A stretch of 62,757 nt of DNA. Source: a virus (Duplodnaviria > Caudoviricetes). This document shows positions 38,334 through 49,967 of the stretch, piece after piece (within the stretch, counting starts at the first letter, position 1; each line of letters begins with the position of its first letter). Location: positions 1 to 62,757 of IMG/VR virus record IMGVR_UViG_3300027996_000032; one strand, given 5' to 3'. The notes below the pieces were generated by a model. It was not told the DNA's origin, ran no database searches, and saw only the letters and a program-made list of their open reading frames with translations. The position numbers and the translations under genes are program-made.

Positions 38334-38344
38334 GTGGGAGTACC

Positions 38345-38533
38345 CTACCCGAGAGCTCCAAGCAGCGAGACAGGACCCAGCCGGTCGGCGACGAGAGGCT
38401 CACCCTTGACACCGGCTTGCGCCAGGCAGGGATCACACACCGGTTGCCTGTTGTCCATGCTGGCCACGCGCGTCGCCGTCTGCACCATCTTGCTCACGTC
38501 CTTCTGACCACACTTCACACAATCGTGCTTCAC
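38345..38533 (-). CDS. small Cys4 Zn-finger protein
   Basis: CVKC...CDPC. Confidence 0.45.
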   Translation of the reverse strand: MKHDCVKCGQKDVSKMVQTATRVASMDNRQPVCDPCLAQAGVKGEPLVADRLGPVSLLGALG

Positions 38534-38737
38534 CTTGCACCTCCTTGTGGACCGAATCCTACAGGCGGGTCACGCCTCCGCGACAGCATGGTTGAGGATA
38601 CCGAAGAAGAAGCACTCGCAGCAAAACATGTCTCGTCCGCTGGCTTGTGTGGGGGTTCTCTCGCCTACGCGCGCGGCGCCTGGACACGTGCAGACTTTCG
38701 CATGTCGGCGCTGTGGTGGCTTGCCCATCGGGCCACA

Positions 38738-39022
38738 TCAAGATCGCTCATCCGCTCCTTGAGCCAGTCGCGCCTTTAGATCTATGGCCACATAGCGCTG
38801 CTCGAACGTGCCATCGGCCATCCACTTCGCGCGCCACCACCCTCTTCGTAGGGCGCTTGCCCGTGTTTCGCACTGATTGGGCACGCCCGAAAAGACATGC
38901 TTCGTGCCGCATGGTCGCTCCACGTCGAAGCGCCAGGGGTACGGGTGCCATGAGGGCATCCCGTCCGGAACAAACGCGCGAACATGGTGGCCGTGGTACG
39001 TCTTCACCGTTTCCGTGGTCAT
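38738..39022 (-). CDS. hypothetical protein
   Basis: GGAG RBS, ATGA coupling. Confidence 0.55.
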   Translation of the reverse strand: MTTETVKTYHGHHVRAFVPDGMPSWHPYPWRFDVERPCGTKHVFSGVPNQCETRASALRRGWWRAKWMADGTFEQRYVAIDLKARLAQGADERS

Positions 39023-39177
39023 CGCGCCAACTCCTCGGGCCAGTCGCCCGTGTCTCCGGTCTCTGGTGGCACCTCACAGGTCCAGGTCACGATCCGGCGC
39101 CCTGGCTCCAACCCCGAAGGGGTGCAGCCAACGGTGGCCAGGAGGAGGACGGCAACGAACAGTGCGCGTTCAATCAC
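39019..39177 (-). CDS. 52-aa lipoprotein (below the ORF-track cutoff)
   Basis: MIERALFVAVLLLATVG-C lipobox-like signal peptide; overlaps both neighbouring genes. Confidence 0.6.
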   Translation of the reverse strand: MIERALFVAVLLLATVGCTPSGLEPGRRIVTWTCEVPPETGDTGDWPEELAR

Positions 39178-39559
39178 GAGGCCCCCCAAAGCGGCGAAGG
39201 AGATCCCTTTCCAGCTCGCTCGCCGTATCGGGAGTGAGGGCGCCGGCGTTCACCATCTTCTGCAAGAGGAGCACCGCGTCGACGGCCTCGTCTTCGTCTT
39301 TAACCACCACCAACTCTACCTGATCCATCAGGTCGGCCGGTATGATCGGGAAGAAACTCGCATCACGGCACGCCATGTTGAGCACGTGCGCCATCTCCTC
39401 AAGGTCCTGACTGCTGATCCCAGCACGAGGCACGATAACCACAGGGCTGTGAGCGCTGCCCCCGTAGCAGAACTTGACGATCGAACGGTTCAACTCCGCC
39501 CATTCGCTTTTGACGTAGCCGGGAGAGCCCACAGCCTTCGTCCACAAGCACGTCACCAT
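39170..39559 (-). CDS. hypothetical protein
   Basis: GAGGTG RBS; 129 aa. Confidence 0.55.
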   Translation of the reverse strand: MVTCLWTKAVGSPGYVKSEWAELNRSIVKFCYGGSAHSPVVIVPRAGISSQDLEEMAHVLNMACRDASFFPIIPADLMDQVELVVVKDEDEAVDAVLLLQKMVNAGALTPDTASELERDLLRRFGGPRD

Positions 39560-39574
39560 CGCTTCACCTCGTTG

Positions 39575-39805
39575 CTATTTGTCCCAGAACACTCGGCCCG
39601 GCAGCTGCACTGTCGGGTTGCCTTCTTCCCACGTGACCCAGAACCCGGCCTTCGACAGCGCGAAGCACCGTCCGAAGTGCTCCGCAGACGGGTCGCCACC
39701 ATGCGTTTCGTGGTCCTCGATGCGCTCGCACACCACCTCATAGGTCCGCACCACGCCGATCTCGGCAGGGGACCAACGCGGCCAACATGATCCTGTGAGG
39801 ATCAT
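39575..39805 (-). CDS. hypothetical protein
   Basis: 76-aa ORF with protein-like composition. Confidence 0.4.
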   Translation of the reverse strand: MILTGSCWPRWSPAEIGVVRTYEVVCERIEDHETHGGDPSAEHFGRCFALSKAGFWVTWEEGNPTVQLPGRVFWDK

Positions 39806-39811
39806 GTTGGC
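39781..39811. repeat. perfect 14-bp inverted repeat GCCAACATGATCCT-GTG-AGGATCATGTTGGC
   Basis: read directly from the sequence. Confidence 0.85.
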
Positions 39812-39931
39812 TCAGCGCCCCCGGTTTCTTCGGCTCGACTTCTGGCGACGCTTCCACACCGGCCGAGTCACGAACGGCACAGGTCGTCGCGATGCCACAG
39901 GTGGTTGGCGGCGGTAGTTGCGGGGTGATGA

Positions 39932-40294
39932 TCACGACACCTCGCCGAGCTCGTCACCCACCCACCGCATGCTCTGTACCGTGACGGGTCCACCATCCAG
40001 TCGTTCCGCGGCACGCACCTCGACGAGAGGCGCTTGCATGCGGGCCACGACACGGTTGTTGCTCACCACCTCGACCGTCCAGTCGCGACGCCCGACCGAC
40101 CTGGCCCACGGCTCGCCGTCCGGGGGCTCGATGTACGCGCGCCGACAGCACTCGATGCTCGGCCACCGCAGAACAAGGACGCCGTCGTCGATGTACCGTC
40201 CATCATCCACCAGCACGACACGAGCCCGACCCACCCACGCGGGACCACCTGGTGGCCCGTAGGTGATGGCGCAGCCCTCGAAGCGCGTGATCAT
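39932..40294 (-). CDS. hypothetical protein
   Basis: start MITRFEG coupled to the stop of an upstream 40-aa ORF. Confidence 0.45.
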   Translation of the reverse strand: MITRFEGCAITYGPPGGPAWVGRARVVLVDDGRYIDDGVLVLRWPSIECCRRAYIEPPDGEPWARSVGRRDWTVEVVSNNRVVARMQAPLVEVRAAERLDGGPVTVQSMRWVGDELGEVS

Positions 40295-40413
40295 CCCTCG
40301 CCCCCTGGCGCTGGTTCCCACCCATCAGGCCATGCAACCACCCGGGCCTCCCTCACGAGGTCGTCGGGGTTGTCGTCGTACAGCGTGACGCTGCCGTCTG
40401 AGTACAGCCACAT
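40291..40413 (-). CDS. 40-aa hypothetical protein (MWLYSDGSVTLYDD...), possibly leaderless
   Basis: TGtTACTGT extended -10-like element 3 nt before the ATG; TGA overlaps the next ATG. Confidence 0.4.
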   Translation of the reverse strand: MWLYSDGSVTLYDDNPDDLVREARVVAWPDGWEPAPGGEG

Positions 40414-40443
40414 GCAACAGTAACACGGCGAGACGGGTGGAGG

Positions 40444-43400
40444 CTACGATGCCCGGCGTTTCACAACGAGGCGAGGACGGCGGCGGCGGGCTGCTGCGCG
40501 TAGCGCCTTGGCCAGCACATCGGTGCGCTGCATGGCCTTCACGAGATCCCCAACGGCCTCGTGGATGTGCGCGCGCTCGGCATCCTGCGGGTAGGGCTGC
40601 TCGGTGCGGGTCGGGTCCTTCATCCGGGTACCGTAGACAAGGTAGGTGCTCTGCCTCTTCTGCTTGTGGAGCGTGTCTTCCACGTATGACTCGAAGGCGC
40701 GAGCGAACATCTCGTGCGGCGTCGCCCAGTACCCCTTTCCGAGTGCTTCGGCGTGCTGTAGGTACGTGGTCTTGTTCGCGGTAGGTAGTGCCTTGATCTT
40801 GGCGTTGAACGTCTTCACTTCTTCGTTGTATGCGTCCGACGCGGCGCTCCTTTCCTTCCCCTTCAGGCGCGCAGCCTTCGACCTGACCAACCGCAGGCGT
40901 TGTCGCTCCGCGTTCAGGTCTGTATCCGCGGCTGCTCGCTCCTTCCGAAGCTCGGCCTGGCGCTCTGGTGTCGGGGTCGTGATCCGATGCATCACCTCGC
41001 GGAACGCTCTCGACACATCTGGGTGCAGCTTGTCCGCTGACGACCTGGCGGACACGAACGGCGCGCTTGCCTTCTGTCCTGGCCGCCCTGGCGTCATGGC
41101 GGAAGGATCATCCACGAGCTGGTGGTCGAAGAAGTGCGCCCATTCGTGGGCGAGACTGCCCGCACCTTTGGTGTGGGTGAGGTTGATCACCTGCGTGTCG
41201 GGCTCGTAGTGAGCCGCCGCGGCCCCCCCTTGCTTGCCGCCACGAGCGCCGATCGTGATGGCCAACACACCACCGTGAGATATCTGCCTCGGGTGCATCC
41301 CGAGGACATCCGCCAGGTCGGTCAGGGCCTCGTGAGAGCGTGCAAGGTGCTCGTCACGGCTGGCCTGGTCCACCCAATCGCCCCAGCGGACAGCGCGCAG
41401 CCCAAACAGATCGGTGAGCTTTTCGCCGGACGGGTTCGACACGTCGACCTTTGGCCCCCCAACACGACGGTTCTCGGTGGTGGCTCGGGTCCATTTGGTG
41501 CCCTTGCGCCGCGTCTTCTTCTTCGAGTCGAGCATGGACGACCAATCGTCCTCTTTCTCGATCTTCCTTGCATGGTAGCGGTCCTTTTCCCAGAACGCAG
41601 AGTTCGCGGTCCGCTCGGTTCTGGCTCGGTGGTCGGCACCGTTGATCACGCTGGCCAGGCGTCGGGCTGACCGGCGTCCACGCCGGTCAAAGCCAGCCTC
41701 ACCGCTGAGCGCGTCCATGTAGCGATACCAGACGTTCTCGGACTTCGGGATCGGCTTGGTGAGACGGTAGCCGCCGCCGCCCCGCACCACCTCCGACGAG
41801 TACCCGGCCGCCTTCAGCATCCCGAACGAGATCTGTTCGCGACGGTCGAGGGCGTCGATCTTCACGTTGAGTCGCTTCACCTCGTCCCAGTCCGGCACGG
41901 CCTTTGTTCTTTCAGCCTTGAGGGCCTGGAGCTGCTTCAGCTCCGCTCGTGTGTTCAGGTTGATCTGCGTGTAGCCGCCACCGCTCGGAGCACCCTTGTG
42001 CTCCTTCACCTCGGCCCACAGCTCTTGTGCCGAGAGGGTCTTTTCCTCGACCATGTGGCCGCTCGCCATGAGCTTCCAGTCCCGAACGAATGAGATCACC
42101 TTCTCCATGGTGTCGCACGCCGCGAGTTCCTTCTGCAGCCAGGTGGCGCCGGCCACGTAGTCGCGGCGATAGTCGGCGCCATCCTTCGGACCCACAGCCA
42201 CAGCCGCCAGGAGCTTCTTCTTGAGCCATGCGGCACCAGGTGTCGCTCCCGAATCCCTCTCCTCCTCGGCGCTGAACTTCTCGAACACGTTCTTCTTGAG
42301 TGCGTGCTTTCTTGCTGTCTTGGCGCCACGCGATTCGAGCTCGCCAATGTTCGCCTCGTTGATGCGCGTTTTGGCCCTCCACTCGTCTTTTCGGTCGCCT
42401 GGCACGTAGACGCCCACATCCACGTGGTCGCCGGCCTTCGCGGGTGTCCGCGACCGCTTCGGCGACTTCTTGGGGGCTGGCGCCAGTTGACCGTCCGGCG
42501 TCACAGCTGGCGCCAAAGCGGCGGAGCCTGTGGCCGGCTTCGGCTTCTTCGCCTCCGCTGCCTTCAGCTCAAGCTCGTAGCGCATCCCAACCATGGCGGG
42601 GCCGACCGACATCTTCGGGCGCCTGCCTCTCTTGTCCGGCATGTAGCCCGGGAGATACTCACCATCGCCGCCCGACAGGGCCGCCCACAACCCGGACGCC
42701 CTGCGAAGGGCCTCGCGGCCATCGTCTGCGACCTGGCCCGTGCTACCCATGCTCGCGGCATGGATGAGCAGCAAGCGCTCGATCTCACTGAGGTGCTCCT
42801 CCTCGGACTTTGGTCCCTCGGAAGTTTCCGCCGCACCCTCGGAAGTTTCCGCCGCACTTTCGGGGTCGACCTCGCCCCGCTTCTTCTTCGCCTTGTCGCG
42901 AAACTCGGCCGCGGCATCCTTGTCGCCGCGCTTCTCGGCCATGTCACCGTGCAGATCGAGGTAGGCCGCCGCCGTCTTCTTCCGCCCGATGTCGTCCTCG
43001 GACAGCTTCGACCCCTGCGCCTCGGGTGCCGGCTCTGGCGTAGGTTCGGGTGCCGGCTCTGGTGCTGGTGTGGGCTCCACAGCCGCCGGAGTCACGGCCG
43101 GCTGCTCGGGCTCGGGCTCCACCACCTGGTGGCCCTTGGCGGTGCGCTCCCCCTCCGTCACCTGAGCCACACCCGTCTTGGTACGACGCAGATGGCGCTT
43201 CACTTTGTAGCGCTGCCCCGCACCTTCGCGTCGCTTGTGCTTCTCGGCTCGCTTCGCGGCGCGCCGGTTGAGCTCCGTTTGCACCACACCGTGGTCGGCG
43301 TGGTTGGGCCCCACCTTCTCCTGGTGGGCTCGCAGCTCTTCGGCGCGCATGCGGAAGACGGAGCGACCAGTCAGCGGTGGCTGTGGCGGCGGCTTCTCGG

Positions 43401-43569
43401 GCTGCAGTGTCGTCGCTGGCTTCTCTGGCGCCCTGGTCGGCGGCGCCTCCTTCTTCTTCGGCTTCCGGCGAGCCTTCGCCTTCTTCTTCTGTGCGGGTGT
43501 CGGGGCACCGAACATGCTCAACTGGGCTTTGAGCAGCTGCAGCCTGGCCGCGACGACGTAACGGCGCAT
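40444..43569 (-). CDS. polyvalent protein with LPD5-like and LPD1 (zincin-like HExxH) domains
   Basis: DVGVYVPGDRKDEW (LPD5-like); VRWGDWV...EALTDLADVLG...GARG...AAAHYEP...INLT...GAGSLAHEWAHFFD...YWATPHEMFARAFESYV...YPQ (LPD1). Confidence 0.8.
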   Translation of the reverse strand: MRRYVVAARLQLLKAQLSMFGAPTPAQKKKAKARRKPKKKEAPPTRAPEKPATTLQPEKPPPQPPLTGRSVFRMRAEELRAHQEKVGPNHADHGVVQTELNRRAAKRAEKHKRREGAGQRYKVKRHLRRTKTGVAQVTEGERTAKGHQVVEPEPEQPAVTPAAVEPTPAPEPAPEPTPEPAPEAQGSKLSEDDIGRKKTAAAYLDLHGDMAEKRGDKDAAAEFRDKAKKKRGEVDPESAAETSEGAAETSEGPKSEEEHLSEIERLLLIHAASMGSTGQVADDGREALRRASGLWAALSGGDGEYLPGYMPDKRGRRPKMSVGPAMVGMRYELELKAAEAKKPKPATGSAALAPAVTPDGQLAPAPKKSPKRSRTPAKAGDHVDVGVYVPGDRKDEWRAKTRINEANIGELESRGAKTARKHALKKNVFEKFSAEEERDSGATPGAAWLKKKLLAAVAVGPKDGADYRRDYVAGATWLQKELAACDTMEKVISFVRDWKLMASGHMVEEKTLSAQELWAEVKEHKGAPSGGGYTQINLNTRAELKQLQALKAERTKAVPDWDEVKRLNVKIDALDRREQISFGMLKAAGYSSEVVRGGGGYRLTKPIPKSENVWYRYMDALSGEAGFDRRGRRSARRLASVINGADHRARTERTANSAFWEKDRYHARKIEKEDDWSSMLDSKKKTRRKGTKWTRATTENRRVGGPKVDVSNPSGEKLTDLFGLRAVRWGDWVDQASRDEHLARSHEALTDLADVLGMHPRQISHGGVLAITIGARGGKQGGAAAAHYEPDTQVINLTHTKGAGSLAHEWAHFFDHQLVDDPSAMTPGRPGQKASAPFVSARSSADKLHPDVSRAFREVMHRITTPTPERQAELRKERAAADTDLNAERQRLRLVRSKAARLKGKERSAASDAYNEEVKTFNAKIKALPTANKTTYLQHAEALGKGYWATPHEMFARAFESYVEDTLHKQKRQSTYLVYGTRMKDPTRTEQPYPQDAERAHIHEAVGDLVKAMQRTDVLAKALRAAARRRRPRLVVKRRAS
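42815..42856. repeat. 21-bp tandem duplication (AAETSEG x2) in a linker of the LPD1 protein
   Basis: CCCTCGGAAGTTTCCGCCGCA twice. Confidence 0.9.
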
Positions 43570-43622
43570 CTCTAGCCCCCTATTCGATACCGGACGGATA
43601 GCGCACGCCGCGGCGCGACGCT

Positions 43623-45653
43623 CTATGCCGCTCGCATGTTCTCACGGCACCGACGAACAACGGGCCTTGCTTTCCACGCCTTGGACAACGGCAGCCCATC
43701 CGGCTTGTCGAGCACGATCCGAATCGCCCGCACGCCGGTGCCGGACCTCCGCCACGCCTTGGGGTCGATCATGCGGTCGCTCTCTCCACGATGCTCGGAC
43801 ACAAAGCGCTGAAACGCCTGGTGAGCCTTTGAGCTGTTGTGCATCGCACCAGCGCCCACGATGGCCACCAGCCGCCCGCCTGGCTTCAGGTTGGTGTGGA
43901 ACGCCTGGAGTACGTGGGCCATGTCCTGACCCTTCTCGAAGGGCGGGTTCATCACCACACGATCGAACCGCCGCGACACCCCCAGCCCGTCCGCCTGCAC
44001 GTTCTGGTAGCCCTTCTCACCCAGTACCTTCCGGAGGGTCGGCGAGATCTCCGCCACGTGGATCTCGGCGTGGGCTGGCAGCATGTCGGCAATGCCACCA
44101 GTGCCGGCCGACGGCTCCAGCACGGACATCCCGGGCTGGATGTCCGCTGACTCCACCATCAGCGCCGCCTCGGGGTAGGGCGTCGGGAAGTAGCCGGCGA
44201 TCATCTTGTGGGCGGGATCCTTCCACCGCTTCGCCTCGAGCTCCTCGGCGTAGGCCATGCGGTCGTCGGCGTTGTCGGTGCGCGAGCGGTCCGGAGCCGG
44301 CCACCGCTCCACCTTCACCCGCTTGCCTGGCTCGGTCCGCTCCAGGAAGGAGCGCGTTCGCTCGACCACGCCATCGTAGTCGCTCGCTGTCTTCCATCCG
44401 ATCTCGTGCTTCGCGGTCCACGTCTTCGCGGACGCCCACCCGGGATCGCGCTTGGTGATCTTCTTGAAGGCCAGCTCAGCGGCGCGCAGCTTCGCGGCGT
44501 CGGCATGGCTCGGCATTCGGATGTGGTCGGCACCAGAGCTGCCTCGGATGGCGTACTTGGAGCGCATGCGTCCGATCAGGCGATTGTATGCGCCGATCGC
44601 CTTCTCCACCTTCTTCTCGTCGAGCCCCCGCCGCTTGTCGCTGTATGAGGTGTCGGCTGTCCGCAGGTAGGTGGTGGTGTCACGGTGCCCCATCGACACC
44701 CGCTCGCGCCTCTCCGTGGCTCGGTCCTGTGCCGCGACGGCGTTCATGGCCGCGGACTTCGCCTCAGGGCTACTCACCACCCGCTCCTCGAAGCGCGTGG
44801 GGCGATACCCCTGATCGATAGCCTCGGCGAACTGCTGCAGCCGCTGGCCCCACAGCACCTTGGCGCCGGCAGACGCCCGACGGTGCGCGCCCTCGCTCGC
44901 TCGCTTGTGCGTGTTCTCGGTGCCGTAGAATGTCGCGGATTCGGTGTTCCGCTCCACCAGGGCGGCGCCCCGCTTCCGGATCTTCGCCGCGAGCTTCGTG
45001 GCCTCCGCATCACCAAGCCGCTGCTCGTGTAGCGGCTCCTGGGTTTCCCTGGCGTGGTGCTCCTGGGCCTTCCGTACCGCCTTCTTGCGCGCCTGGGCTT
45101 CCGTCTTCGCCCCACCGTAGTGCTCGCCGTGCACCCCCTTCGGGGTCCGCATCGTGTCGCGGTGCACCATCGTTGCGTAGGCGTCCGGCAGGCCCGCGCG
45201 GCGCGTCGCCGACAACGCAGCCCGAGCAGACTTCGCCTGAGCGCCGGTCTGGTCGTTGCGGCCAGCCCTGGACATCTTGCGCTTCGCCACGGCATCCGAG
45301 ATGTCTGGCCCAGATGGCGCGCGCACCACCGCCCTCTGCCCGAGCTTCTTCGCCTTCTTCTCGGAACGTCGGCGCGTGCGACGCTCGATCTCCGCCTGCA
45401 GAACGTTGTGGTCGGGGTGGTCTTCCCCCACCTTGCGCTGGTGCGCCACCATGGCGGCACGCCCCATGCGGAACGCGTCCGAAGAGGTCAGCGTGGCCGC
45501 GGTCTTCCGGGTCGAGTGATGCTCTGGCACCGACACCACACCCGCCTTCGTCCGTCGCAGGTGCGCCTTGACCTTGACCTTCTGTGTGGGGGCGCCAAAT
45601 AGGCTCATCTGCGACTTGAGCATCGCGACGAGACCACGCCACTCCCCCATCAT
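43623..45653 (-). CDS. N6-adenine DNA methyltransferase with long basic N-terminal region (DarB-like MTase domain)
   Basis: GYFPTP, VLEPSAGTG, VVMNPPF, LKPGGRLVAI. Confidence 0.85.
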   Translation of the reverse strand: MMGEWRGLVAMLKSQMSLFGAPTQKVKVKAHLRRTKAGVVSVPEHHSTRKTAATLTSSDAFRMGRAAMVAHQRKVGEDHPDHNVLQAEIERRTRRRSEKKAKKLGQRAVVRAPSGPDISDAVAKRKMSRAGRNDQTGAQAKSARAALSATRRAGLPDAYATMVHRDTMRTPKGVHGEHYGGAKTEAQARKKAVRKAQEHHARETQEPLHEQRLGDAEATKLAAKIRKRGAALVERNTESATFYGTENTHKRASEGAHRRASAGAKVLWGQRLQQFAEAIDQGYRPTRFEERVVSSPEAKSAAMNAVAAQDRATERRERVSMGHRDTTTYLRTADTSYSDKRRGLDEKKVEKAIGAYNRLIGRMRSKYAIRGSSGADHIRMPSHADAAKLRAAELAFKKITKRDPGWASAKTWTAKHEIGWKTASDYDGVVERTRSFLERTEPGKRVKVERWPAPDRSRTDNADDRMAYAEELEAKRWKDPAHKMIAGYFPTPYPEAALMVESADIQPGMSVLEPSAGTGGIADMLPAHAEIHVAEISPTLRKVLGEKGYQNVQADGLGVSRRFDRVVMNPPFEKGQDMAHVLQAFHTNLKPGGRLVAIVGAGAMHNSSKAHQAFQRFVSEHRGESDRMIDPKAWRRSGTGVRAIRIVLDKPDGLPLSKAWKARPVVRRCRENMRAA

Positions 45654-47737
45654 TGGAGGCCACGCGTGCGACGGATTCGCTCCATGACGCTCATCAGAGA
45701 GCGTTCGCTCTTCGAGCGCTCCCCGTAGGGCGGCACCACCTCGGGACCATCACCCTTCGCGAGCTTGCGGTACTCCTCGCTTCGGGAGTCCTCGCCGTCT
45801 TTGCGCGTGAACTCCTCGACAATGATCGGATCTATGTACTTGTCAAGAGCGGTCGTCACCGTCAGCTCCCATTCTTTGTTGGGTGGATGCTCGGCCTTCG
45901 GCAGGACCTTGTGCGCAGTCCTCCCGAGTTCCGCCTGATACCGCTTCCGGTCCGCGGTCCCATGGAAGCCCGCCACGTCGGCACCGAAGAGGGCGCCGCC
46001 GTGCTTCTCAACCAGCATTCTATCAGCCTTCTCGTCCGTTTTCACGAAGTGAGAGCGGCTCTTGCCGACCTTGTGCCCGAGCGCTTCCGCAGCCACTGTC
46101 GCGGCCGCTGTGACCCGATCCCCAACCTTCTGCGGGGCACCAGCCTTCGCGAGAGCATCCATCTCGGCAACGAAGATCCGGTTCGCGTGGAAGGTCCGGA
46201 AGTCCTTGATCGTCCCCCCCGTGTGCGAACGCACGTACGTGTTGAGACGGCTGGCGCTCCCCTCGAAGACGCGGGCATCGGGTGGGGGCCCGAGCAGCGG
46301 GGCGATGACCTTGGCGAGCGCAGCATCCTCCACGCTCTTCACGTGTGGCACTGACGCCTTCCCAACGTACGTCAGGATGACCCGATCACCATCGACGCTC
46401 ACCTGTCCTCGCGTGAGGGTCGTCACACCCCTTACATCGAGCTTCGCAGACTTCTCGTTGCCGGCACGGATCAGGGTGCTGTCCACGAGCACAGCCATCG
46501 CCGCAAGATGCGAGCCCCTGGCGAGGTCGGCGATGAACGTCTGGCGCGCACTGTCCAGCGACAGCCCAAACGCGTACATCTTCGCGAACTTCTTCGCGGC
46601 CTGGGCCTTGAGAAAGTCCTCGTGGTAGCCGTAGGTTTTGCGGCTGGTGGTGGGCGACACCCAGCGCAGGCTCCAGTTGTCGGAGGCTCCGCCGCGGGTC
46701 GCGGCGACGCCGACCGGTGGGTACTTGTCCAGGCCGGGCATGTCCGCCCGTAGCTTCGCGGCTGCAGCTTTGGCGTCGGCAATAGGTTGATTCGGCGCGA
46801 CCTTCCGTGTGGCTTGGTGTTGGGGCACCGACACCACGCCCGTCTTCGTGCGGCGAAGGTGGCGCTTCACCGTGACCTTCTGCTCGCCGAACAGCCCGGC
46901 CTGCGCCTTCCGCAGCTCCTTGGGGAGTGCAGCCCACACCCGGTCCGGCTTGTCGAGCCGCTTCGAGCGCGACGACCGCTTGCGCAGGTACGCGGCGAGC
47001 TCGGCGACAGGCCATGCTGTGAGGCCACCATCGAAGCCTGGTTTCGTGTACTGCTTCAGATACGCTCGTCTCGCCGCCGCCGCGGTCCGGTAGCCCAGCA
47101 TGACCTTGTCTTCGTCGAAGACCTGGGTGCCCGGAACCTTCTGGTGCACGACGTAGGCGGTAGGTGCTGATCCATCCTCCCCGACGTAGACATCCACTGG
47201 ATCACCATCGACACCGAGAGTCCGACAGAACTCGCCGTAGTGCGCATGCATCTTGATGATCCATTTCTTCCCGTCTGGATCAAACCCCGTGCGCGTCGAA
47301 CCCTTGCGGTTCTCGACCTTGATCTCGAGCCCCTGGAAGTCGATCACCCCCACGAAGGGGTACTCGCGGCGGTTCGGTTTCGGTGGTGGGCCCACCACCA
47401 CCGCCGATTCAGCGAGCGCCCGCAGCCGCTTTGCCTCCGCGGTGGGTCCGCTGCCCTTCGTCAGCTTGGTGCGACGCAGGCGACGCGCGACGTAGCGCTG
47501 CGAAGGCCGCACGCCCTTCTCCATTTTGCGGAACAGCCCCTCATACGGGACGCCGCCGGTCTTGAATGTGCGCACCAGTTCTGCCGTCTGCGCCCTGGCT
47601 TTCCGGAGACTCGTCACGAGCATGTGGTAGGGCAGCGGGAGCCCTGTACCCTCGATGGTGAGGACACCGACCCGACGCGGCCCACGCCGCCCCCATGCGA
47701 AGGTGAGACCACCGGCTGTCCATGTCGTCGCGACCAT
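45650..47737 (-). CDS. fusion of an inorganic-pyrophosphatase-like domain and DNA topoisomerase IB
   Basis: IKVENRKGSTRTG...HYG...GVDGDPVDVYVG...FDEDKVMLGY (PPase-like); LIRAGNE, YVGK, KDFRTFHAN, LGH, KYIDP (TopIB R-K-R-H-Y pentad). Confidence 0.85.
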   Translation of the reverse strand: MVATTWTAGGLTFAWGRRGPRRVGVLTIEGTGLPLPYHMLVTSLRKARAQTAELVRTFKTGGVPYEGLFRKMEKGVRPSQRYVARRLRRTKLTKGSGPTAEAKRLRALAESAVVVGPPPKPNRREYPFVGVIDFQGLEIKVENRKGSTRTGFDPDGKKWIIKMHAHYGEFCRTLGVDGDPVDVYVGEDGSAPTAYVVHQKVPGTQVFDEDKVMLGYRTAAAARRAYLKQYTKPGFDGGLTAWPVAELAAYLRKRSSRSKRLDKPDRVWAALPKELRKAQAGLFGEQKVTVKRHLRRTKTGVVSVPQHQATRKVAPNQPIADAKAAAAKLRADMPGLDKYPPVGVAATRGGASDNWSLRWVSPTTSRKTYGYHEDFLKAQAAKKFAKMYAFGLSLDSARQTFIADLARGSHLAAMAVLVDSTLIRAGNEKSAKLDVRGVTTLTRGQVSVDGDRVILTYVGKASVPHVKSVEDAALAKVIAPLLGPPPDARVFEGSASRLNTYVRSHTGGTIKDFRTFHANRIFVAEMDALAKAGAPQKVGDRVTAAATVAAEALGHKVGKSRSHFVKTDEKADRMLVEKHGGALFGADVAGFHGTADRKRYQAELGRTAHKVLPKAEHPPNKEWELTVTTALDKYIDPIIVEEFTRKDGEDSRSEEYRKLAKGDGPEVVPPYGERSKSERSLMSVMERIRRTRGLQ

Positions 47738-47785
47738 TTGGGCCTCCGTCGTTCAGCTGCCGGGATTCTAACGTGCGGCGCACCC

Positions 47786-47814
47786 TTGACGCGTGCGGCC
47801 ATCGCGTGCAGGAT
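47786..47814 (+). promoter_or_regulatory. putative sigma70-type promoter for the RNA island
   Basis: TTGACG-N17-CAGGAT, upstream of a structured leader and the tRNA-like genes. Confidence 0.5.
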
Positions 47815-47900
47815 CCCCTCATGTACAACCGCACCCATTGACAGCACGACCCCGCACGGCGGGGACGAGAGCCATCAGGCGGCCCGGCTTGTGCATATCC

Positions 47901-47975
47901 ACCCACGTAGTTCAGTTGGCAGAACACCCGGTGTAATGAACCGGGAGGTCGAGGGTTCGATCCCCTCCGCGGGTA
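47901..47975 (+). tRNA. tRNA-like gene with expanded anticodon arm (9-nt loop TGTAATGAA; identity undetermined)
   Basis: acceptor ACCCACG/CGCGGGT (one A-C mismatch), D arm GTTC/GAAC, AC stem CCCGG/CCGGG, T arm GAGGG-TTCGATC-CCCTC; no encoded CCA. Confidence 0.7.
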
Positions 47976-47978
47976 TTG

Positions 47979-48051
47979 GGGCGAGTAGCTCAGCGGTAGA
48001 GCGTCGGGCCTTCGGGTCCGGAGGTGGCTGGGTCAGCACCAGCCTCGCCCA
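47979..48051 (+). ncRNA. anticodon-less tRNA-like RNA (anticodon loop replaced by a cUUCGg tetraloop)
   Basis: acceptor GGGCGAG/CTCGCCC, D arm GCTC-AGCGGTA-GAGC, TCGGGCC-TTCG-GGTCCGG, T arm GCTGG-GTCAGCA-CCAGC. Confidence 0.7.
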
Positions 48052-48072
48052 TACCCTTTCCAGAGGTGAGCG

Positions 48073-48369
48073 ATGAAGCTCTATCTGATCGTGAAGACCG
48101 CCCTGGGGGCAGGTCTTCGGTGTGCGCAGGCCATCCACGCCTTCCGCGCCTTCGTTGGCGAGTACCCGCACATTGAGACGTTCTGGCACCTCGAGCACAA
48201 CAACATCGTGGTGCTGCGCCACGAGGATCCCGAGTCGCTCGCCGCGTTGCTCCGGATGCATGGCCTCCGCTTATCCCTCTTCCGGGAACCCGACCTCGAC
48301 AACGAAGTCACGGCGCTGTGCGTCGAGCCCGCCGGCGCCCGCTACCTGTCGACACTTCCCCTCGCGTGA
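48073..48369 (+). CDS. Pth2-like peptidyl-tRNA hydrolase
   Basis: KLYLIV...L.AG..CAQAIHA...IVVL...FREPDLDNEVTALCVEP...LS.LPL; GAGGTG RBS. Confidence 0.8.
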   Translation: MKLYLIVKTALGAGLRCAQAIHAFRAFVGEYPHIETFWHLEHNNIVVLRHEDPESLAALLRMHGLRLSLFREPDLDNEVTALCVEPAGARYLSTLPLA

Positions 48370-48397
48370 CGACCACAAGGCTATCTTCCCCATGGTG

Positions 48398-48472
48398 GGG
48401 CCTGTAGCTCAGTGGTAGAGCACTCGTCTGATAAGTGAAAGGTCGGCCGTTCGAACCGGCCCAGGCCCACCA
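48398..48472 (+). tRNA. tRNA-Ile(GAT)
   Basis: GGGCCTG/CAGGCCC-ACCA, loop CTGATAA, T loop TTCGAAC; weak anticodon stem (one C-A, two G-U). Confidence 0.85.
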
Positions 48473-48480
48473 CCTCGAAA

Positions 48481-48890
48481 GGGCTGTCCGATCTTGCGCC
48501 GACTGGCGTCAATCGTGCGGACGGTGGGACTACCCCGGGAGGCGACAAGCCACCGTCGCTGTGGATCCCCGTTGAGGGCCCAGGCCAGCGGGCGGCTGGT
48601 GTCGGGAACAACCTCCGCGGGATGATCACGCAGCCGGGACCATGGAGAGCTAACGAGACACCTCGATCGGCTGTGCCAAACTGCCATTGGATGACCCAGC
48701 GTCCATAGGCGTCGTTGCAGCGTCCGGAGAGGGTGGCGAGTGCTCCGTGCTGGACCCGCGACGATCGGATAGGGTCCGACAGAGCTGGCTGGGCCAGCAC
48801 CGCCCATCCCCTTTGCGGGGATTGAAACGCGACGCGCGCAGTTATCTGCACGCTTAAACAGGCCAGAGGGTTCAAACCCTCTGGCCTGTT
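48481..48890 (+). ncRNA. candidate ~410-nt highly structured ncRNA
   Basis: no credible ORF; many nested helices and two possible pseudoknots (see findings). Confidence 0.6.
48857..48890. terminator. perfect 14-bp hairpin between convergent units, probable terminator or 3' end of the ncRNA
   Basis: AACAGGCCAGAGGG-TTCAAA-CCCTCTGGCCTGTT. Confidence 0.65.
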
Positions 48891-48899
48891 GCGCTGGTG

Positions 48900-49088
48900 C
48901 TACCTGTCGACGCGTGACGAACCGAACTCCACACTCACCGACTCCACCTTGAACGACAACATGGGGTGCGTCTCGATCATCGCCTTGATGCGCTCCTCCG
49001 CCCGTAGTTCTCGTATTCCGGGTAGCCCTGAAACCTCACCGTCGCTGCGAGTTGCTTTGGTTCTTCCACCTCGTTCCTCCTGCGCCAT
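48900..49088 (-). CDS. small hypothetical protein
   Basis: 62-aa ORF after the TopIB-like gene. Confidence 0.35.
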   Translation of the reverse strand: MAQEERGGRTKATRSDGEVSGLPGIRELRAEERIKAMIETHPMLSFKVESVSVEFGSSRVDR

Positions 49089-49106
49089 GTCACCACACCA
49101 TAACCG

Positions 49107-49967
49107 CTAGGGCTGGTGGTGGTCATCGAACGGGTCGGAGCGCTTCACAGCATCCAGGTGCCCACCAAAGTCGTCGTGTGACTCCATGCTCTTGGGGACG
49201 ACCCCATACCTGCCGTGAGCCTTTCGCGTGGTGGCGTCCACATCGTCGAGCTCGACGCCAGACTTGAAGGCCGCGCGCTCGGCGTGTCTCTCCGCCTGCT
49301 GCTTCGTCTTCGGGCGCCCCAGCTCGGCGACCTCTTTGGACCATCGCCGCGTGGCGTGGTGCCCCCTGACACCATCCATGCCGGCGCCGAGGTGGTCCTT
49401 CAGGTATTCCTCCACGTGGTCGGCCTCGACGGCCCGTGGTGAGCCGTCGTGCCCCGCCCCTTCGAAGACCTGCCCCACCTCGCGACCTTCGAGCGCCGCC
49501 CGAAGCCATGCCGCAAGGCGGGCGTCCTCGACTTCGTGGTGGGGCTGCGACGCCGCACGCACCGACACCTTGGTGCCGTCCACCTTGATCTCGTTGGCCG
49601 TGATGTGGTGGATGTGGCGGCCCGCATACTGGGTGAGCAGCGCACATGCAGCGCGCGCAGCTATGGGGCTCGTCGCGCCGAGGCGTAGATCTCGGTACGC
49701 ATGGGCGCGGAACTTCGGGATCTCCGCGTGGTGCCTCCGGAGCTCCGCGAACCCCGCACCCGCGTCGCTGTGTTCCTTCGCCTTCGCTCGCCCCTCGTCG
49801 TGAGAGGGCCCACCGCTTCCGGAGTGCTCGACGTAGTGCCCGTGATGGACGCGATGGGTCGCGCCCTCGTCGTCCTGGACTGTGACACCGTGGCGGCCTG
49901 GCTTGTGGACCAGCCGCCCGGTGTGTGGTTTCCCCGTCTGCGGGTGTCGGAACTGGACCCGCTTCAC
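49107..49967 (-). CDS. SH3/KOW-like N-terminus plus degenerate topoisomerase IB-like catalytic domain
   Basis: IPKFRAHAYRDL...ACALL...IKVDGTKVSV...EVEDARLAAWL...QVFE...VEEYLK...VRGHHAT matches the TopIB core by eye; no RxGNE or YIDP. Confidence 0.55.
   Translation of the reverse strand: MKRVQFRHPQTGKPHTGRLVHKPGRHGVTVQDDEGATHRVHHGHYVEHSGSGGPSHDEGRAKAKEHSDAGAGFAELRRHHAEIPKFRAHAYRDLRLGATSPIAARAACALLTQYAGRHIHHITANEIKVDGTKVSVRAASQPHHEVEDARLAAWLRAALEGREVGQVFEGAGHDGSPRAVEADHVEEYLKDHLGAGMDGVRGHHATRRWSKEVAELGRPKTKQQAERHAERAAFKSGVELDDVDATTRKAHGRYGVVPKSMESHDDFGGHLDAVKRSDPFDDHHQP

What the first reader, a model, noticed from the sequence alone, without database searches (positions are those of the whole stretch)
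47901..48051. Tandem tRNA mimics with non-decoding anticodon arms, one capped by a cUUCGg tetraloop
Seen: two cloverleaves 3 nt apart with paired acceptor, D and T stems. The first has a 9-nt anticodon loop (or a 6-bp stem with loop GTAATGA). The second has a 7-bp stem closed by C(UUCG)G and an atypical T loop GTCAGCA. Neither encodes CCA. Preserved pairing plus an extra-stable tetraloop suggests selection on shape rather than decay. Inference: decoys or inhibitors of anticodon nucleases (PrrC/RloC/PARIS type) or of tRNA-binding sensors, RNase P/Z processing handles for the polycistron, or partners of the neighbouring Pth2.
Basis: partly seen in the sequence, partly recalled or inferred. Interest (0 to 1): 0.8.

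Follow-up and report, generated by a model that had tools for sequence, protein, structure and literature searches.

The report
Sealed-anticodon tRNA mimics beside phage Pth2
A marine phage carries two tRNA-shaped RNA genes whose anticodon arms are built so that they almost certainly cannot read codons, kept together with a small peptidyl-tRNA-hydrolase-like gene as one portable cassette, which points to a job other than translation, probably in the phage-host fight over tRNAs.

Summary
ARAGORN and Rfam call tRNA-shaped genes at 47901-47975 (52.5 bits) and 47979-48051 (41.8 bits), 3 nt apart, without encoded CCA. The first has a 6-bp anticodon stem with loop GUAAUGA. The second has a 7-bp stem capped by C(UUCG)G.

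They are not decaying tRNAs. The only related locus I could fetch (L002) has the same order: tRNA-like 1, tRNA-like 2, Pth2-like gene. It also shares a leader, while its flanks are unrelated. Between the two loci, 11 of 43 counted base pairs changed on both sides and stayed paired. Two cells are unpaired, one in each locus.

The odd arms persist. Arm 1 is again 6 bp plus 7 nt, and its sixth pair changed from U-A to G-C. Arm 2 again has no anticodon loop and, in its best fold, ends in C(UCCG)G. Both L002 copies encode CCA.

The neighbouring 98-aa protein has the Pth2 fold (TM about 0.8).

UUCG-capped tRNA-likes also occur in other viral contigs.

The function is inferred, not shown. My best guess is that they are trans-acting tRNA-body mimics working alongside Pth2 in tRNA-centred conflict. 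Rivals are processing handles, Pth2 substrates, or an odd decoding tRNA. I rate it a new variant of a known kind, interest about 0.65.

The parts
47784..47791 (+). CCTTGACG, a -35-like element conserved in the leader (inferred promoter part)
   Evidence: Identical in the window and L002 in alignment A2. A loose end of the X4 variant contig also shows CCTTGACG. The consensus promoter scan found no full sigma-70 site in 47500-49200, so promoter function is only inferred.
47850..47864 (+). Leader hairpin CCCCG-CACGG-CGGGG, preceded by the conserved TGACAG
   Evidence: The stem is conserved with a different loop in L002 (CCCCG-GCGAU-CGGGG) in alignment A2. Its function is unknown.
47901..47975 (+). 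tRNA-like RNA 1: full tRNA body, 6-bp anticodon stem, 7-nt loop GUAAUGA (or 5 bp plus a 9-nt loop), A.C mismatch at acceptor pair 5, no CCA
   Evidence: ARAGORN Ile(aat). Rfam 52.5 bits. Fold. Against L002: 7 of 22 pairs compensatory and 43 of 44 cells paired.
47979..48051 (+). tRNA-like RNA 2: tRNA body, anticodon arm replaced by a 7-bp stem capped with C(UUCG)G, T loop GUCAGCA, no CCA
   Evidence: ARAGORN tRNA-???. Rfam 41.8 bits. Fold at z -2.70. Against L002: 4 of 21 pairs compensatory and 41 of 42 cells paired.
48073..48369 (+). 98-aa Pth2-fold protein gene, with a Shine-Dalgarno-like GAGGTGA at 48063-48069
   Evidence: Pfam PTH2 at E 0.0038 and 17.9 bits, below the cut-off of 23. phrog_1866 at 1.7e-7. 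AlphaFold2 pLDDT 90.6. Foldseek top hits are Bit1, MJ0051, AF2095 and Sso Pth2 at TM 0.7-0.83. Ten relatives at 61-74% identity.
48398..48472 (+). Ordinary tRNA-Ile(GAU) with encoded CCA. It is in the same + strand island but is not part of the conserved cassette (absent in L002).
   Evidence: ARAGORN. Rfam 65 bits. It is the only part of 47700-48500 with matches among cultured phages: 27 records, all within query positions 699-776.

Best explanation
Shown: these are two genuine tRNA-shaped RNA genes kept under selection. Together with a Pth2-fold gene, a shared leader hairpin and a -35-like box, they form a small + strand cassette. It sits among genes that I read as minus-strand, by a third-position G+C screen of ORFs, and it recurs in an otherwise unrelated contig. 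Both RNAs keep everything that tRNA-handling enzymes read: a 7-bp acceptor stem, D and T arms, and elbow nucleotides. Their anticodon arms are built so that ordinary decoding is very unlikely. One has an extra sixth base pair under a loop starting GUA, with G at position 32. The other is a closed helix ending in a UNCG tetraloop.

Inferred mechanism: the transcript is cut by RNase P and 3' processing enzymes into free RNAs with a CCA end (encoded in L002, added in the window's host). These act in trans as tRNA-body mimics. They would occupy host factors that recognise tRNA by shape, most plausibly defence nucleases that cut anticodon loops, without being usable or cleavable at a normal anticodon loop. 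The co-expressed Pth2-like hydrolase would release tRNA from peptidyl-tRNA left on stalled or damaged translation complexes.

Confidence that they are conserved RNAs whose anticodon arms depart from every decoding pattern compared here, linked to Pth2, is about 0.8. The figure below is for the whole mimic-plus-clean-up mechanism.
For: - Real tRNA-like genes.
- Homologous cassette L002 with the same order and tight spacing (5 nt against 3 nt). L1 scores 42.7 bits in a short-stretch search and L2 51.4 bits.
- Flanks are unrelated: the only strong tblastx or blastn matches between L002 and the window lie in the cassette (Pth2 119 bits; everything else 37 bits or less).
- In both loci the cassette points against neighbouring ORFs.
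- Covariation for RNA 1: 22 pairs, 7 changed on both sides, 3 on one side with the pair kept, 1 cell unpaired. Controls slid by 1-3 columns give 0-1 such pairs and 36-52% pairing.
- Covariation for RNA 2: 21 pairs, 4 changed on both sides, 1 cell unpaired; slid controls give 0.
- Three of the 6 pairs of the abnormal stem of RNA 1 covary, including the extra sixth pair, U-A to G-C.
- L2 again lacks a 7-nt loop. Its best fold ends in C(UCCG)G, and Rfam and MAFFT align it that way.
- Both L002 RNAs end in NCCA.
- A diverged variant in run X4 shows U11-A24 changed to C11-G24 in RNA 1.
- Loop positions break decoder rules (recalled textbook rule: Y32, U33, R37). Both loops have G32, and L1 has C37.
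- The nominal anticodons AAU and AUG differ between the homologues and would read rare codons: ATT 53 against ATC 465, and CAT 58 against CAC 372, in 32 ORFs.
- The protein has the Pth2 fold.
- PTH2-like genes sit inside phage tRNA arrays (passages of PMC5966550). A role in freeing peptidyl-tRNA after tRNA cleavage has been proposed (passage of PMC7824862).
- The neighbouring genes are 'polyvalent protein' conflict genes.
- Phage tRNAs that escape tRNA nucleases through anticodon-loop changes are in print (PMC10264068, PMC11555353, PMC12409363: search listings and abstract starts only).
Against: - No expression, processing, CCA or binding data. No RNA run holds the stretch.
- Only one homologous locus could be read, so covariation rests on two sequences. 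The shuffle control is weak for RNA 2 (96 of 500) and modest for RNA 1 (8 of 500).
- RNA 1 still has an open 7-nt loop with U33, so it is not sealed and could be cut or could even decode.
- The host and its defence systems are unknown, and no tRNA nuclease is tied to this phage.
- A stoichiometric decoy would need high expression. No consensus promoter or terminator was found.
- The MFE folds of L1 and L2 alone are not clean cloverleaves, and their z-scores are weak (-1.16 and -1.01).
- The arm of L2 has a second, nearly isoenergetic reading: 7 bp plus an AGGG loop plus a long variable region. The 'conserved UNCG cap' therefore depends on the alignment.
- The atypical T loop of RNA 2 is not conserved (L2 has UUCGAUU).
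- UUCG-capped tRNA-likes elsewhere had no Pth2 gene in their (incomplete) records: 0 of 3.
Confidence: 0.35

Rival explanations
1. Cis-acting punctuation. The two cloverleaves serve only as RNase P and RNase Z (or RNase E) cutting sites, or as 5' stabilisers that mature the Pth2-like mRNA. The closed anticodon arms merely keep the released pieces out of translation.
For: They lie directly upstream of the ORF in one + strand unit: 21 nt before the start codon in the window and 91 nt in L002. The leader is shared. tRNA-mRNA co-transcripts are common in bacteria and phages (general knowledge).
Against: Both L002 copies encode CCA exactly after the discriminator, which a pure cutting signal does not need. 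Two different mimics are kept, each with its own abnormal arm that covaries. In cluster C mycobacteriophages the homologous Pth2-like gene is not directly preceded by a tRNA; two protein genes lie in between. UUCG-capped tRNA-likes occur inside large tRNA arrays with no adjacent Pth2.
Confidence: 0.2
2. Dedicated partners of the Pth2-like enzyme. The mimics are acylated or aminoacylated at their CCA end. They act as substrates, regulators or carriers for the hydrolase, for example as sacrificial targets of host toxins that modify the aminoacyl or CCA end, or as codon-independent acceptors of nascent chains on stalled ribosomes.
For: The three parts travel together while the flanks differ. CCA is encoded in L002. 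The protein has a Pth2 fold, and that family's chemistry acts at the tRNA 3' ester.
Against: I could see no synthetase identity set that works without an anticodon: no G3.U70, no G-1, and no long variable arm in the window copy (read; identity rules recalled). The lysine that follows the glycine in the archaeal Pth2 sequence aligned is not conserved in this subfamily (R, K, Y or M one residue further on). That this lysine is catalytic is recalled, not checked. Acceptor stems vary between the homologues, so sequence-specific reading of the acceptor is unlikely.
Confidence: 0.15
3. RNA 1 is an unusual but working decoder: a 6-bp-stem tRNA reading AUU, or an expanded 9-nt-loop tRNA that shifts frame. 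RNA 2 is a dead or regulatory passenger.
For: ARAGORN assigns Ile(aat), or His(atg) in L002. The loop has 7 nt with U33, and G37 in the window. Decoders with a 6-bp anticodon stem exist (tRNAPyl, mt-tRNASer(UCN)), as does a working 8-nt loop (yeast mt-tRNAThr) (passages of PMC7609411).
Against: The anticodon and the discriminator differ between the homologues (AAU with A73 against AUG with G73). Both would start with A34, which bacteria use only in tRNA-Arg(ACG) (recalled). Both have G32, and L1 has C37. There is none of the compensation seen in tRNAPyl or mt-tRNASer: the variable loop is 5 nt rather than 3, and there are two connector nucleotides rather than one (against PMC7609411). ATT and CAT are rare codons here, and a normal tRNA-Ile(GAU) lies 420 nt away.
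Confidence: 0.1
4. Decaying tRNA pseudogenes or chance cloverleaves, or leftover tRNA copies from integration sites (attP).
For: The window copies have an A.C mismatch in the acceptor of RNA 1, an odd T loop in RNA 2 and no CCA. The 3' half of RNA 1 resembles a tRNA-Lys(CUU)-like contig in the same samples, with 33 of 38 positions identical.
Against: Rfam E-values are 2e-8 and 2e-5. There are 11 compensatory pair changes and 84 of 86 cells paired across the two loci. The defects of the window copies are not shared by L002. Whole cloverleaves are present, not 3' halves. No integrase domain appeared among the 26 window ORFs scanned with Pfam or the 10 scanned with PHROGs; these two sets share 2 ORFs and do not cover every ORF.
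Confidence: 0.04

Closest known systems
Phage-encoded tRNAs that escape tRNA-targeting defences through altered anticodon loops (mycobacteriophage tRNAs against VapC/MazF-type toxins; T5 tRNAs against PARIS and retron effectors)
   Same: They are tRNA genes carried by phages, with changes concentrated in the anticodon arm, and are interpreted as an answer to host nucleases (PMC10264068, PMC11555353, PMC12409363: search listing and abstract starts).
   Different: Those are working decoders with normal 5-bp/7-nt arms that replace cut host tRNAs. Here one arm has no anticodon loop at all and the other is lengthened, so replacement in translation is not the likely role. A term search of PMC10264068 for decoy, tRNA-like, pseudo and hydrolase found nothing.
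PTH2-like genes inside phage tRNA arrays (cluster C mycobacteriophages, jumbo phages)
   Same: A Pth2-family gene embedded among phage tRNA genes. tblastn found 219 phage records, 206 of them Mycobacterium phages, at about 37% identity and annotated as peptidyl tRNA hydrolase. The array context is seen in Alice and described in passages of PMC5966550 and PMC7824862.
   Different: There the neighbours are ordinary tRNAs (11 of 11 in the Alice locus have normal anticodon calls, one of them CUA) and no hidden tRNA-likes were found. Here the two conserved neighbours are non-canonical.
T4 RNA C and RNA D, small stable RNAs from the T4 tRNA region
   Same: Non-tRNA small RNAs transcribed from a phage tRNA cluster, function unknown (passage of PMC3014915).
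   Different: That they are larger than tRNAs is recalled, not checked. They are not linked to a Pth2 gene.
Bacterial Y RNA-like YrlA (RF02553) and the tRNA-like domain of tmRNA
   Same: They are RNAs that keep acceptor, T and D features of tRNA but have no anticodon. They are recognised by tRNA enzymes and act with a protein partner (PMC4201824 and PMC3985003: abstract starts only).
   Different: YrlA scores only 23.2 and 23.4 bits against a gathering score of 69, and the match straddles the T arm of RNA 1 and the D arm of RNA 2, which is an artefact of tandem tRNAs. ARAGORN finds no tmRNA. Here the anticodon arm is retained as a closed helix rather than opened into a long Ro-binding or mRNA-like module.
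tRNAPyl and mt-tRNASer(UCN) (6-bp anticodon stem); yeast mt-tRNAThr(UAG) (8-nt loop)
   Same: RNA 1 shares the 6-bp anticodon stem. Read with 5-bp stems, the arms would have 9-nt and 8-nt loops.
   Different: The known decoders compensate with a 3-nt variable loop and a single connector nucleotide (passages of PMC7609411). RNA 1 has 5 and 2. In RNA 2 the 'extra' loop nucleotides are complementary and end in a tetraloop.

Membership tests
tRNA (Rfam RF00005) as a shape | Covariance-model score at or above the gathering score of 29 bits over the full model | tested here: met
   52.5 and 41.8 bits, model positions 1-71. L002 copies score 42.7 and 51.4 bits.
Decoding elongator tRNA | 5-bp anticodon stem and 7-nt loop with pyrimidine 32, U33 and purine 37 (rule recalled) | tested here: not met
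   RNA 1 has 6 bp and loop GUAAUGA with G32; L1 has loop GUAUGCG with G32 and C37. RNA 2 has 7 bp plus UUCG. L2 has no 7-nt loop in either reading.
Decoding elongator tRNA | Anticodon and identity conserved between orthologues | tested here: not met
   AAU with A73 in the window against AUG with G73 in L002 for RNA 1. No anticodon can be named for RNA 2.
Decoding elongator tRNA | Tertiary-pair nucleotides: U8-A14, G18 G19 with U55 C56, purine 15-pyrimidine 48, T54-A58 (recalled) | tested here: inconclusive
   All are present in RNA 1, L1 and L2. RNA 2 has G15 with G48, and G54 with G58 (read).
Decoding elongator tRNA | Aminoacylation and ribosome use | not testable with these tools
   No RNA or biochemical data. 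No RNA run holds the stretch.
tRNAPyl / mt-tRNASer(UCN) type (6-bp anticodon stem decoders) | 6-bp stem together with a 3-nt variable loop and one connector nucleotide (PMC7609411 passages) | tested here: not met
   The stem is 6 bp, but the variable loop is AGGUC (5 nt) and the connector is UA (2 nt).
YrlA / Y RNA-like (RF02553) | Score at or above 69 bits | tested here: not met
   23.2 bits in the window and 23.4 bits in L002, spanning two adjacent tRNA-likes.
tmRNA | tRNA-like domain plus a tag reading frame, as found by ARAGORN | tested here: not met
   ARAGORN reports 3 tRNA genes and no tmRNA in the window.
PTH2 peptidyl-tRNA hydrolase (PF01981), for the neighbouring ORF | Pfam score at or above 23 bits | tested here: not met
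   17.9 bits, E 0.0038. A profile search against PDB sequences gives only E 0.24 and 0.39, both to Pth2 entries.
PTH2 peptidyl-tRNA hydrolase (PF01981), for the neighbouring ORF | Pth2 fold | tested here: met
   Model pLDDT 90.6. The 13 Foldseek matches at E <= 0.001 are Pth2-family structures (1q7s, 2zv3, 3erj, 1wn2, 1xty, 1rlk), TM by query length 0.71-0.83.
PTH2 peptidyl-tRNA hydrolase (PF01981), for the neighbouring ORF | Catalytic residues and hydrolase activity | tested here: inconclusive
   Invariant Q19, H22, D74 and T80 align with conserved Pth2 positions, but the lysine after the glycine is not kept. The catalytic set is recalled, not checked in a paper. Activity was not tested.
Type III toxin-antitoxin (RNA repeats upstream of a small protein gene) | Tandem near-identical RNA repeats processed by the toxin | tested here: not met
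   The two RNAs are different tRNA-likes, not repeats.

The most novel reading that the evidence does not exclude
The cassette is a minimal ribosome-rescue device that needs no codon. The sealed tRNA mimics receive CCA and an amino acid, enter A sites left empty when host defences cut mRNAs or tRNAs, and take over the nascent chain without reading a codon. The Pth2-like hydrolase then frees the peptide. This would be a phage-borne, tag-less counterpart of tmRNA-SmpB. The UUCG-capped tRNA-likes seen in other viral tRNA arrays would be members of the same class.
Probability: 0.06. Interest if true: 0.9.

Novelty: new variant of a known kind. Interest (0 to 1): 0.65.

Why it matters
Phage tRNAs are now seen as weapons against bacterial immune nucleases that cut tRNAs, but all described cases are working decoders. 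A conserved pair of tRNA look-alikes that keep the body and give up the anticodon, travelling with a Pth2-fold enzyme, would add a different tactic: mimicry or sponging rather than replacement. It would also give the unexplained phage PTH2 genes a concrete RNA partner to test. The side observation that tetraloop-capped tRNA-likes recur in unrelated viral contigs, including large tRNA arrays, suggests that annotators' 'undetermined' tRNAs may hide a class of functional RNAs.

Tried and rejected
- **Close relatives in IMG/VR.** The Pth2-like protein, the InPase-topoisomerase protein, profile A1, an exact 26-mer, and two degenerate patterns built from the window-L002 comparison all found nothing.
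- **Genome contigs.** Profile A1 and one pattern found nothing.
- **Metagenome contigs.** Only L002 was found (after a busy-machine failure).
- **Whole record of L002.** Not held, so its other tRNAs are unknown.
- **Relatives for a virus record.** These are not drawn.
- **RNA evidence.** No RNA holder is listed for the stretch.
- **Read laying.** The X4 variant (record 18) ends inside RNA 1. Eleven of its 26 differences are not itemised. By elimination they lie in its last 30 nt, which is the anticodon arm, and I could not read them.
- **Isotype origin.** blastn of each RNA against cultured phages gave only mixed tRNA types. RNA 1 matched Met, Phe, Lys, His and Gln at 73-80%. RNA 2 matched 24-25 nt of tRNA-Val 5' parts, plus one tRNA-Gln at 77%. 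No parent tRNA could be named.
- **YrlA.** Rejected as an artefact.
- **Promoter and terminator scan.** No sigma-70-like site, and no + strand terminator after the cassette.
- **Archaeal bulge-helix-bulge intron reading of L2.** Considered by eye and dropped, because the mature loop would lack U33.
- **Kissing or pairing** of the RNA 1 loop with the leader hairpin or the ribosome-binding site. Checked by eye; no complementarity.
- **Literature.** Nine searches turned up no description of tRNA-likes with a sealed anticodon arm linked to Pth2. I saw listings, abstract starts and the passages cited, not whole papers, and no supplements.
Full report
**1. What is there**

The stretch read holds two tRNA-shaped genes on the + strand. 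ARAGORN reports tRNA-Ile(aat) at 47901-47975 and tRNA-??? (tc) at 47979-48051. It also reports an ordinary tRNA-Ile(gat) at 48398-48472.

Rfam's tRNA model scores them 52.5, 41.8 and 65 bits against a gathering score of 29. For the first two, the whole-window E-values are 2.1e-8 and 1.7e-5 (alignments).

MFE folding returns cloverleaves:
- RNA 1 has the arm CCCGGU|GUAAUGA|ACCGGG, which is 6 bp plus a 7-nt loop, or equally 5 bp plus a 9-nt loop.
- RNA 2 has UCGGGCC|UUCG|GGUCCGG, which is 7 bp plus a C(UUCG)G tetraloop. Its z-score is -2.70.

RNA 2 has the T loop GUCAGCA. RNA 1 has an A.C mismatch at acceptor pair 5. Neither is followed by CCA, whereas the third tRNA is.

**2. The sequence is sound**

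The window is a linear IMG/VR virus record that CheckV estimates to be 69% complete. Runs labelled seawater metagenome hold the stretch. Contigs of two runs that are not marked as the possible source reproduce the RNAs without a difference: X3 record 11 over 47886-48104 and X4 record 19 over 47917-48378.

**3. Context in the window**

The window is a tailed phage. It has a large terminase, a portal and a major head protein.

By a third-position G+C screen of ORFs, most likely genes lie on the minus strand. The two RNAs, a 98-aa ORF (48073-48369) and tRNA-Ile form a small + strand island.

The upstream, divergent genes are 'polyvalent protein' type:
- an InPase plus topoisomerase-IB fusion at 45650-47737
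- a methyltransferase-bearing 676-aa protein
- an LPD1 protein
- a 1904-aa protein with a helicase C domain

**4. The neighbouring protein**

Pfam gives PTH2 at E 0.0038 and 17.9 bits, below the cut-off of 23. PHROGs gives phrog_1866, of unknown function, at 1.7e-7.

An AlphaFold2 model built from an 11-sequence alignment has a mean pLDDT of 90.6. Its 13 Foldseek matches at E <= 0.001 are Pth2-family structures, among them Bit1 1q7s, MJ0051 2zv3, AF2095 3erj, PH1539 1wn2 and Sulfolobus Pth2 1xty. TM-scores normalised by query length are 0.71-0.83. So 'Pth2-like' holds for the fold. Activity is untested, and one lysine of the archaeal Pth2 sequence (aligned) is not conserved here.

The subfamily is large, with 1433 representative clusters at E <= 0.001 and 433 at E <= 1e-10. 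In cultured phages, tblastn finds 219 records, 206 of them Mycobacterium phages, at about 37% identity and annotated as peptidyl tRNA hydrolase. In phage Alice the gene sits inside an array of ordinary tRNAs. This agrees with passages in PMC5966550 and PMC7824862.

**5. The one readable homologue**

Ten relatives of the protein at 61-74% identity exist. Only one lies in a collection I could read: L002, from a 101-kb contig.

Upstream of its Pth2-like gene lie, in the same order, L1 at 2736-2813 and L2 at 2819-2909:
- L1 is called His(atg) by ARAGORN. It scores 42.7 bits in Rfam when searched in a short stretch, although the whole-locus search missed it.
- L2 scores 51.4 bits.
- The two are 5 nt apart, and both end in NCCA.

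Outside this unit the two loci are unrelated. The only strong tblastx or blastn matches are in the cassette, with the Pth2 gene at 119 bits and everything else at 37 bits or less. None of 8 flanking L002 ORFs has a window counterpart or an informative PHROG. In L002 too, the cassette points against its downstream neighbours.

The leaders share CCTTGACG, a TGACAG box and a CCCCG...CGGGG hairpin with different loops. The conserved unit is therefore leader, RNA 1, RNA 2 and the Pth2-like gene. It has the look of a moron-type insertion.

**6. Selection on structure**

For RNA 1, counted on reference-based alignment A3:
- 22 pairs were counted.
- 7 changed on both sides and stayed paired.
- 3 changed on one side and stayed paired.
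- 1 cell is unpaired, the window's A.C.
- 97.7% of cells are paired. Sliding the partners by 1-3 columns gives 36-52% pairing and 0-1 double changes.
- 8 of 500 shuffles reach the observed values.

For RNA 2, with its lower arm stem (alignment A4):
- 21 pairs were counted.
- 4 changed on both sides.
- 1 cell is unpaired.
- Slid controls give 0 double changes.
- The shuffle control is weak (96 of 500), as expected for two sequences.

A third, diverged variant in run X4 (record 18) shows C6>T, and T11>C together with A24>G. The last two make a compensatory change in the D stem of RNA 1. Random decay is therefore excluded, as far as two to three sequences can show it.

**7. The abnormal arms are what is kept**

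In RNA 1 the 6-bp stem carries 3 of the 7 double changes, including the extra sixth pair (U-A to G-C). The arm is 19 nt in both loci. The loops are GUAAUGA and GUAUGCG, sharing only GUA.

Both loops have G at position 32, and L1 has C at position 37. The nominal anticodons (AAU, AUG) and the discriminators (A, G) differ between the two loci. Both anticodons would begin with A34. The rules invoked here (Y32, U33, R37; A34 in bacteria only in tRNA-Arg) are recalled textbook knowledge.

The codons they would read are rare in 32 window ORFs: ATT 53 against ATC 465, and CAT 58 against CAC 372.

Known decoders with a 6-bp stem compensate with a 3-nt variable loop and a single connector nucleotide (passages of PMC7609411). 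RNA 1 has 5 and 2.

In RNA 2, L2 again lacks a 7-nt loop, and two readings are nearly isoenergetic:
- The best reading (-15.3 kcal/mol) has a 5-bp lower stem, a 2x5 internal loop and GGGCC(UCCG)GGCUU. It leaves the variable loop AGGUU, like AGGUG and AGGUC in the other three RNAs. It is the reading that Rfam and MAFFT give.
- The other reading (-14.3, or -13.2 alone) has 7 bp plus an AGGG loop and a 20-nt variable region.

In either reading the arm is closed.

The MFE folds of whole L1 and L2 are not clean cloverleaves, and their z-scores are weak. The covariance-model scores carry the call.

**8. Wider occurrence (a side result)**

I scanned IMG/VR for a common D arm followed within 5-9 nt by CTTCGG. 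This gave 13 loci (sequences; ARAGORN on 9 of them; folds of 6 of them). None is an ordinary tRNA-Arg.
- Seven near-identical loci from contigs of about 57 kb have a 6-bp stem plus UUCG in place of the anticodon arm, and a weak acceptor.
- L012, in a 20-tRNA array of a 251-kb contig, has a good acceptor and a 3 bp, 1x1 internal loop, 5 bp, UUCG arm.
- L005 and L007 carry the same tRNA-like sequence. L006 is separate. All three have 18-nt arms like RNA 2. L006 carries an A.A mismatch and can be read as 5 bp plus an 8-nt loop.
- L008 is an odd 90-nt tRNA-like in a 17-tRNA array.
- L009 is a fragment.

The pattern itself favours cUUCGg hairpins, so this is not a frequency estimate. It does show that tRNA bodies with capped anticodon helices recur in unrelated viruses. 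No PF01981 match was found in the incomplete records of L005-L007 (0 of 3).

**9. How it most likely works**

Shown: two conserved tRNA-shaped RNAs with non-standard anticodon arms, in a portable unit with a Pth2-fold gene.

Inferred: the RNAs are matured like tRNAs and carry a CCA end. CCA is encoded twice out of twice in L002, which chance would give about once in 4000.

I judge the most coherent role to be trans-acting tRNA-body mimicry in the conflict over tRNAs. The mimics would compete for host factors that recognise tRNA shape, above all defence nucleases that cut anticodon loops, without offering a normal loop. The Pth2-like enzyme would recycle peptidyl-tRNA from stalled translation, a role already proposed for phage PTH2 (PMC7824862 passage). 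I give this whole mechanism about 0.35.

The rivals are:
- cis processing handles (0.2), weakened by the encoded CCA and by selection on two distinct arms
- dedicated substrates or partners of the hydrolase, including a codon-independent rescue role (0.15)
- RNA 1 as an odd decoder (0.1)
- decay, chance or attP remnants (0.04)

**10. Novelty and limits**

Known kinds that come close are:
- phage decoder tRNAs that evade tRNA nucleases (PMC10264068 and others; listings only)
- PTH2 genes in phage tRNA arrays
- T4 RNA C and RNA D (PMC3014915 passage)
- YrlA and the tRNA-like domain of tmRNA

None combines a retained but closed anticodon helix, a lengthened partner and a Pth2-fold gene in one conserved cassette. 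Nine literature searches found no such description. I saw listings and passages, not supplements.

I file it as a new variant of a known kind. The main limits are these:
- There is only one fully readable homologue.
- There are no RNA data.
- The host is unknown.
- The alignment of the L2 arm is ambiguous.

Noticed in passing
L005 7305-7411 (-), L007 (same sequence), L006 2479-2553 (-), L010/L011/L013-L017, L012 3062-3138 (-), L008 4322-4411 (+): tRNA-like genes whose anticodon arm is a helix capped by UUCG (6, 7 or about 9 bp) occur in unrelated IMG/VR contigs. Two sit inside arrays of 17 and 20 tRNAs, one of them in a 251-kb contig. ARAGORN calls several of them 'tRNA-???'. None is an ordinary tRNA-Arg.
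   Followed up: partly
window 32619-47737 (-): A run of large 'polyvalent protein' type genes: a 1904-aa protein with helicase C, a 1041-aa protein with LPD1, a 676-aa protein with a methyltransferase domain, and a 695-aa fusion of an InPase domain with a eukaryotic-type topoisomerase IB core.
   Followed up: partly
window 47784-47864; L002 about 2617-2700: The untranslated leader is conserved between otherwise unrelated contexts: CCTTGACG, TGACAG, and a CCCCG...CGGGG hairpin with different loops. Its role is unknown; it could be a promoter, an attenuator or a processing site.
   Followed up: no
L003 3601-3673 (phage Alice); L004 4097-4165 (uncultured 462-kb phage): In both more distant phages with a Pth2-like gene, a tRNA with anticodon CUA (amber-suppressor type; ARAGORN 'Pyl') lies a few hundred bases downstream of that gene.
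   Followed up: no
window 47806-47954, run X4 record 18: A diverged variant of the leader and of the 5' part of RNA 1 (26 differences, 3 gaps) coexists in one run with the exact sequence. Its D stem carries a compensatory change. Its anticodon arm could not be read.
   Followed up: partly
window 47939-47976: The 3' half of RNA 1 matches, at 33 of 38 positions, contigs from the same seawater runs. Their loose ends read like a tRNA with a CUU (Lys) anticodon loop followed by a T-run. This is a weak hint at ancestry.
   Followed up: no
window 47979-48051: RNA 2 has G15 with G48 and a G54...G58 T loop. Its L002 homologue has A15 with U48 and a canonical UUCGAUU loop. The elbow of the window copy is therefore atypical and not conserved.
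   Followed up: no
window 48398-48472: The bona fide tRNA-Ile(GAU) encodes CCA while the two mimics 350-500 nt upstream do not. The three RNAs of one island would therefore take different 3' maturation routes.
   Followed up: no
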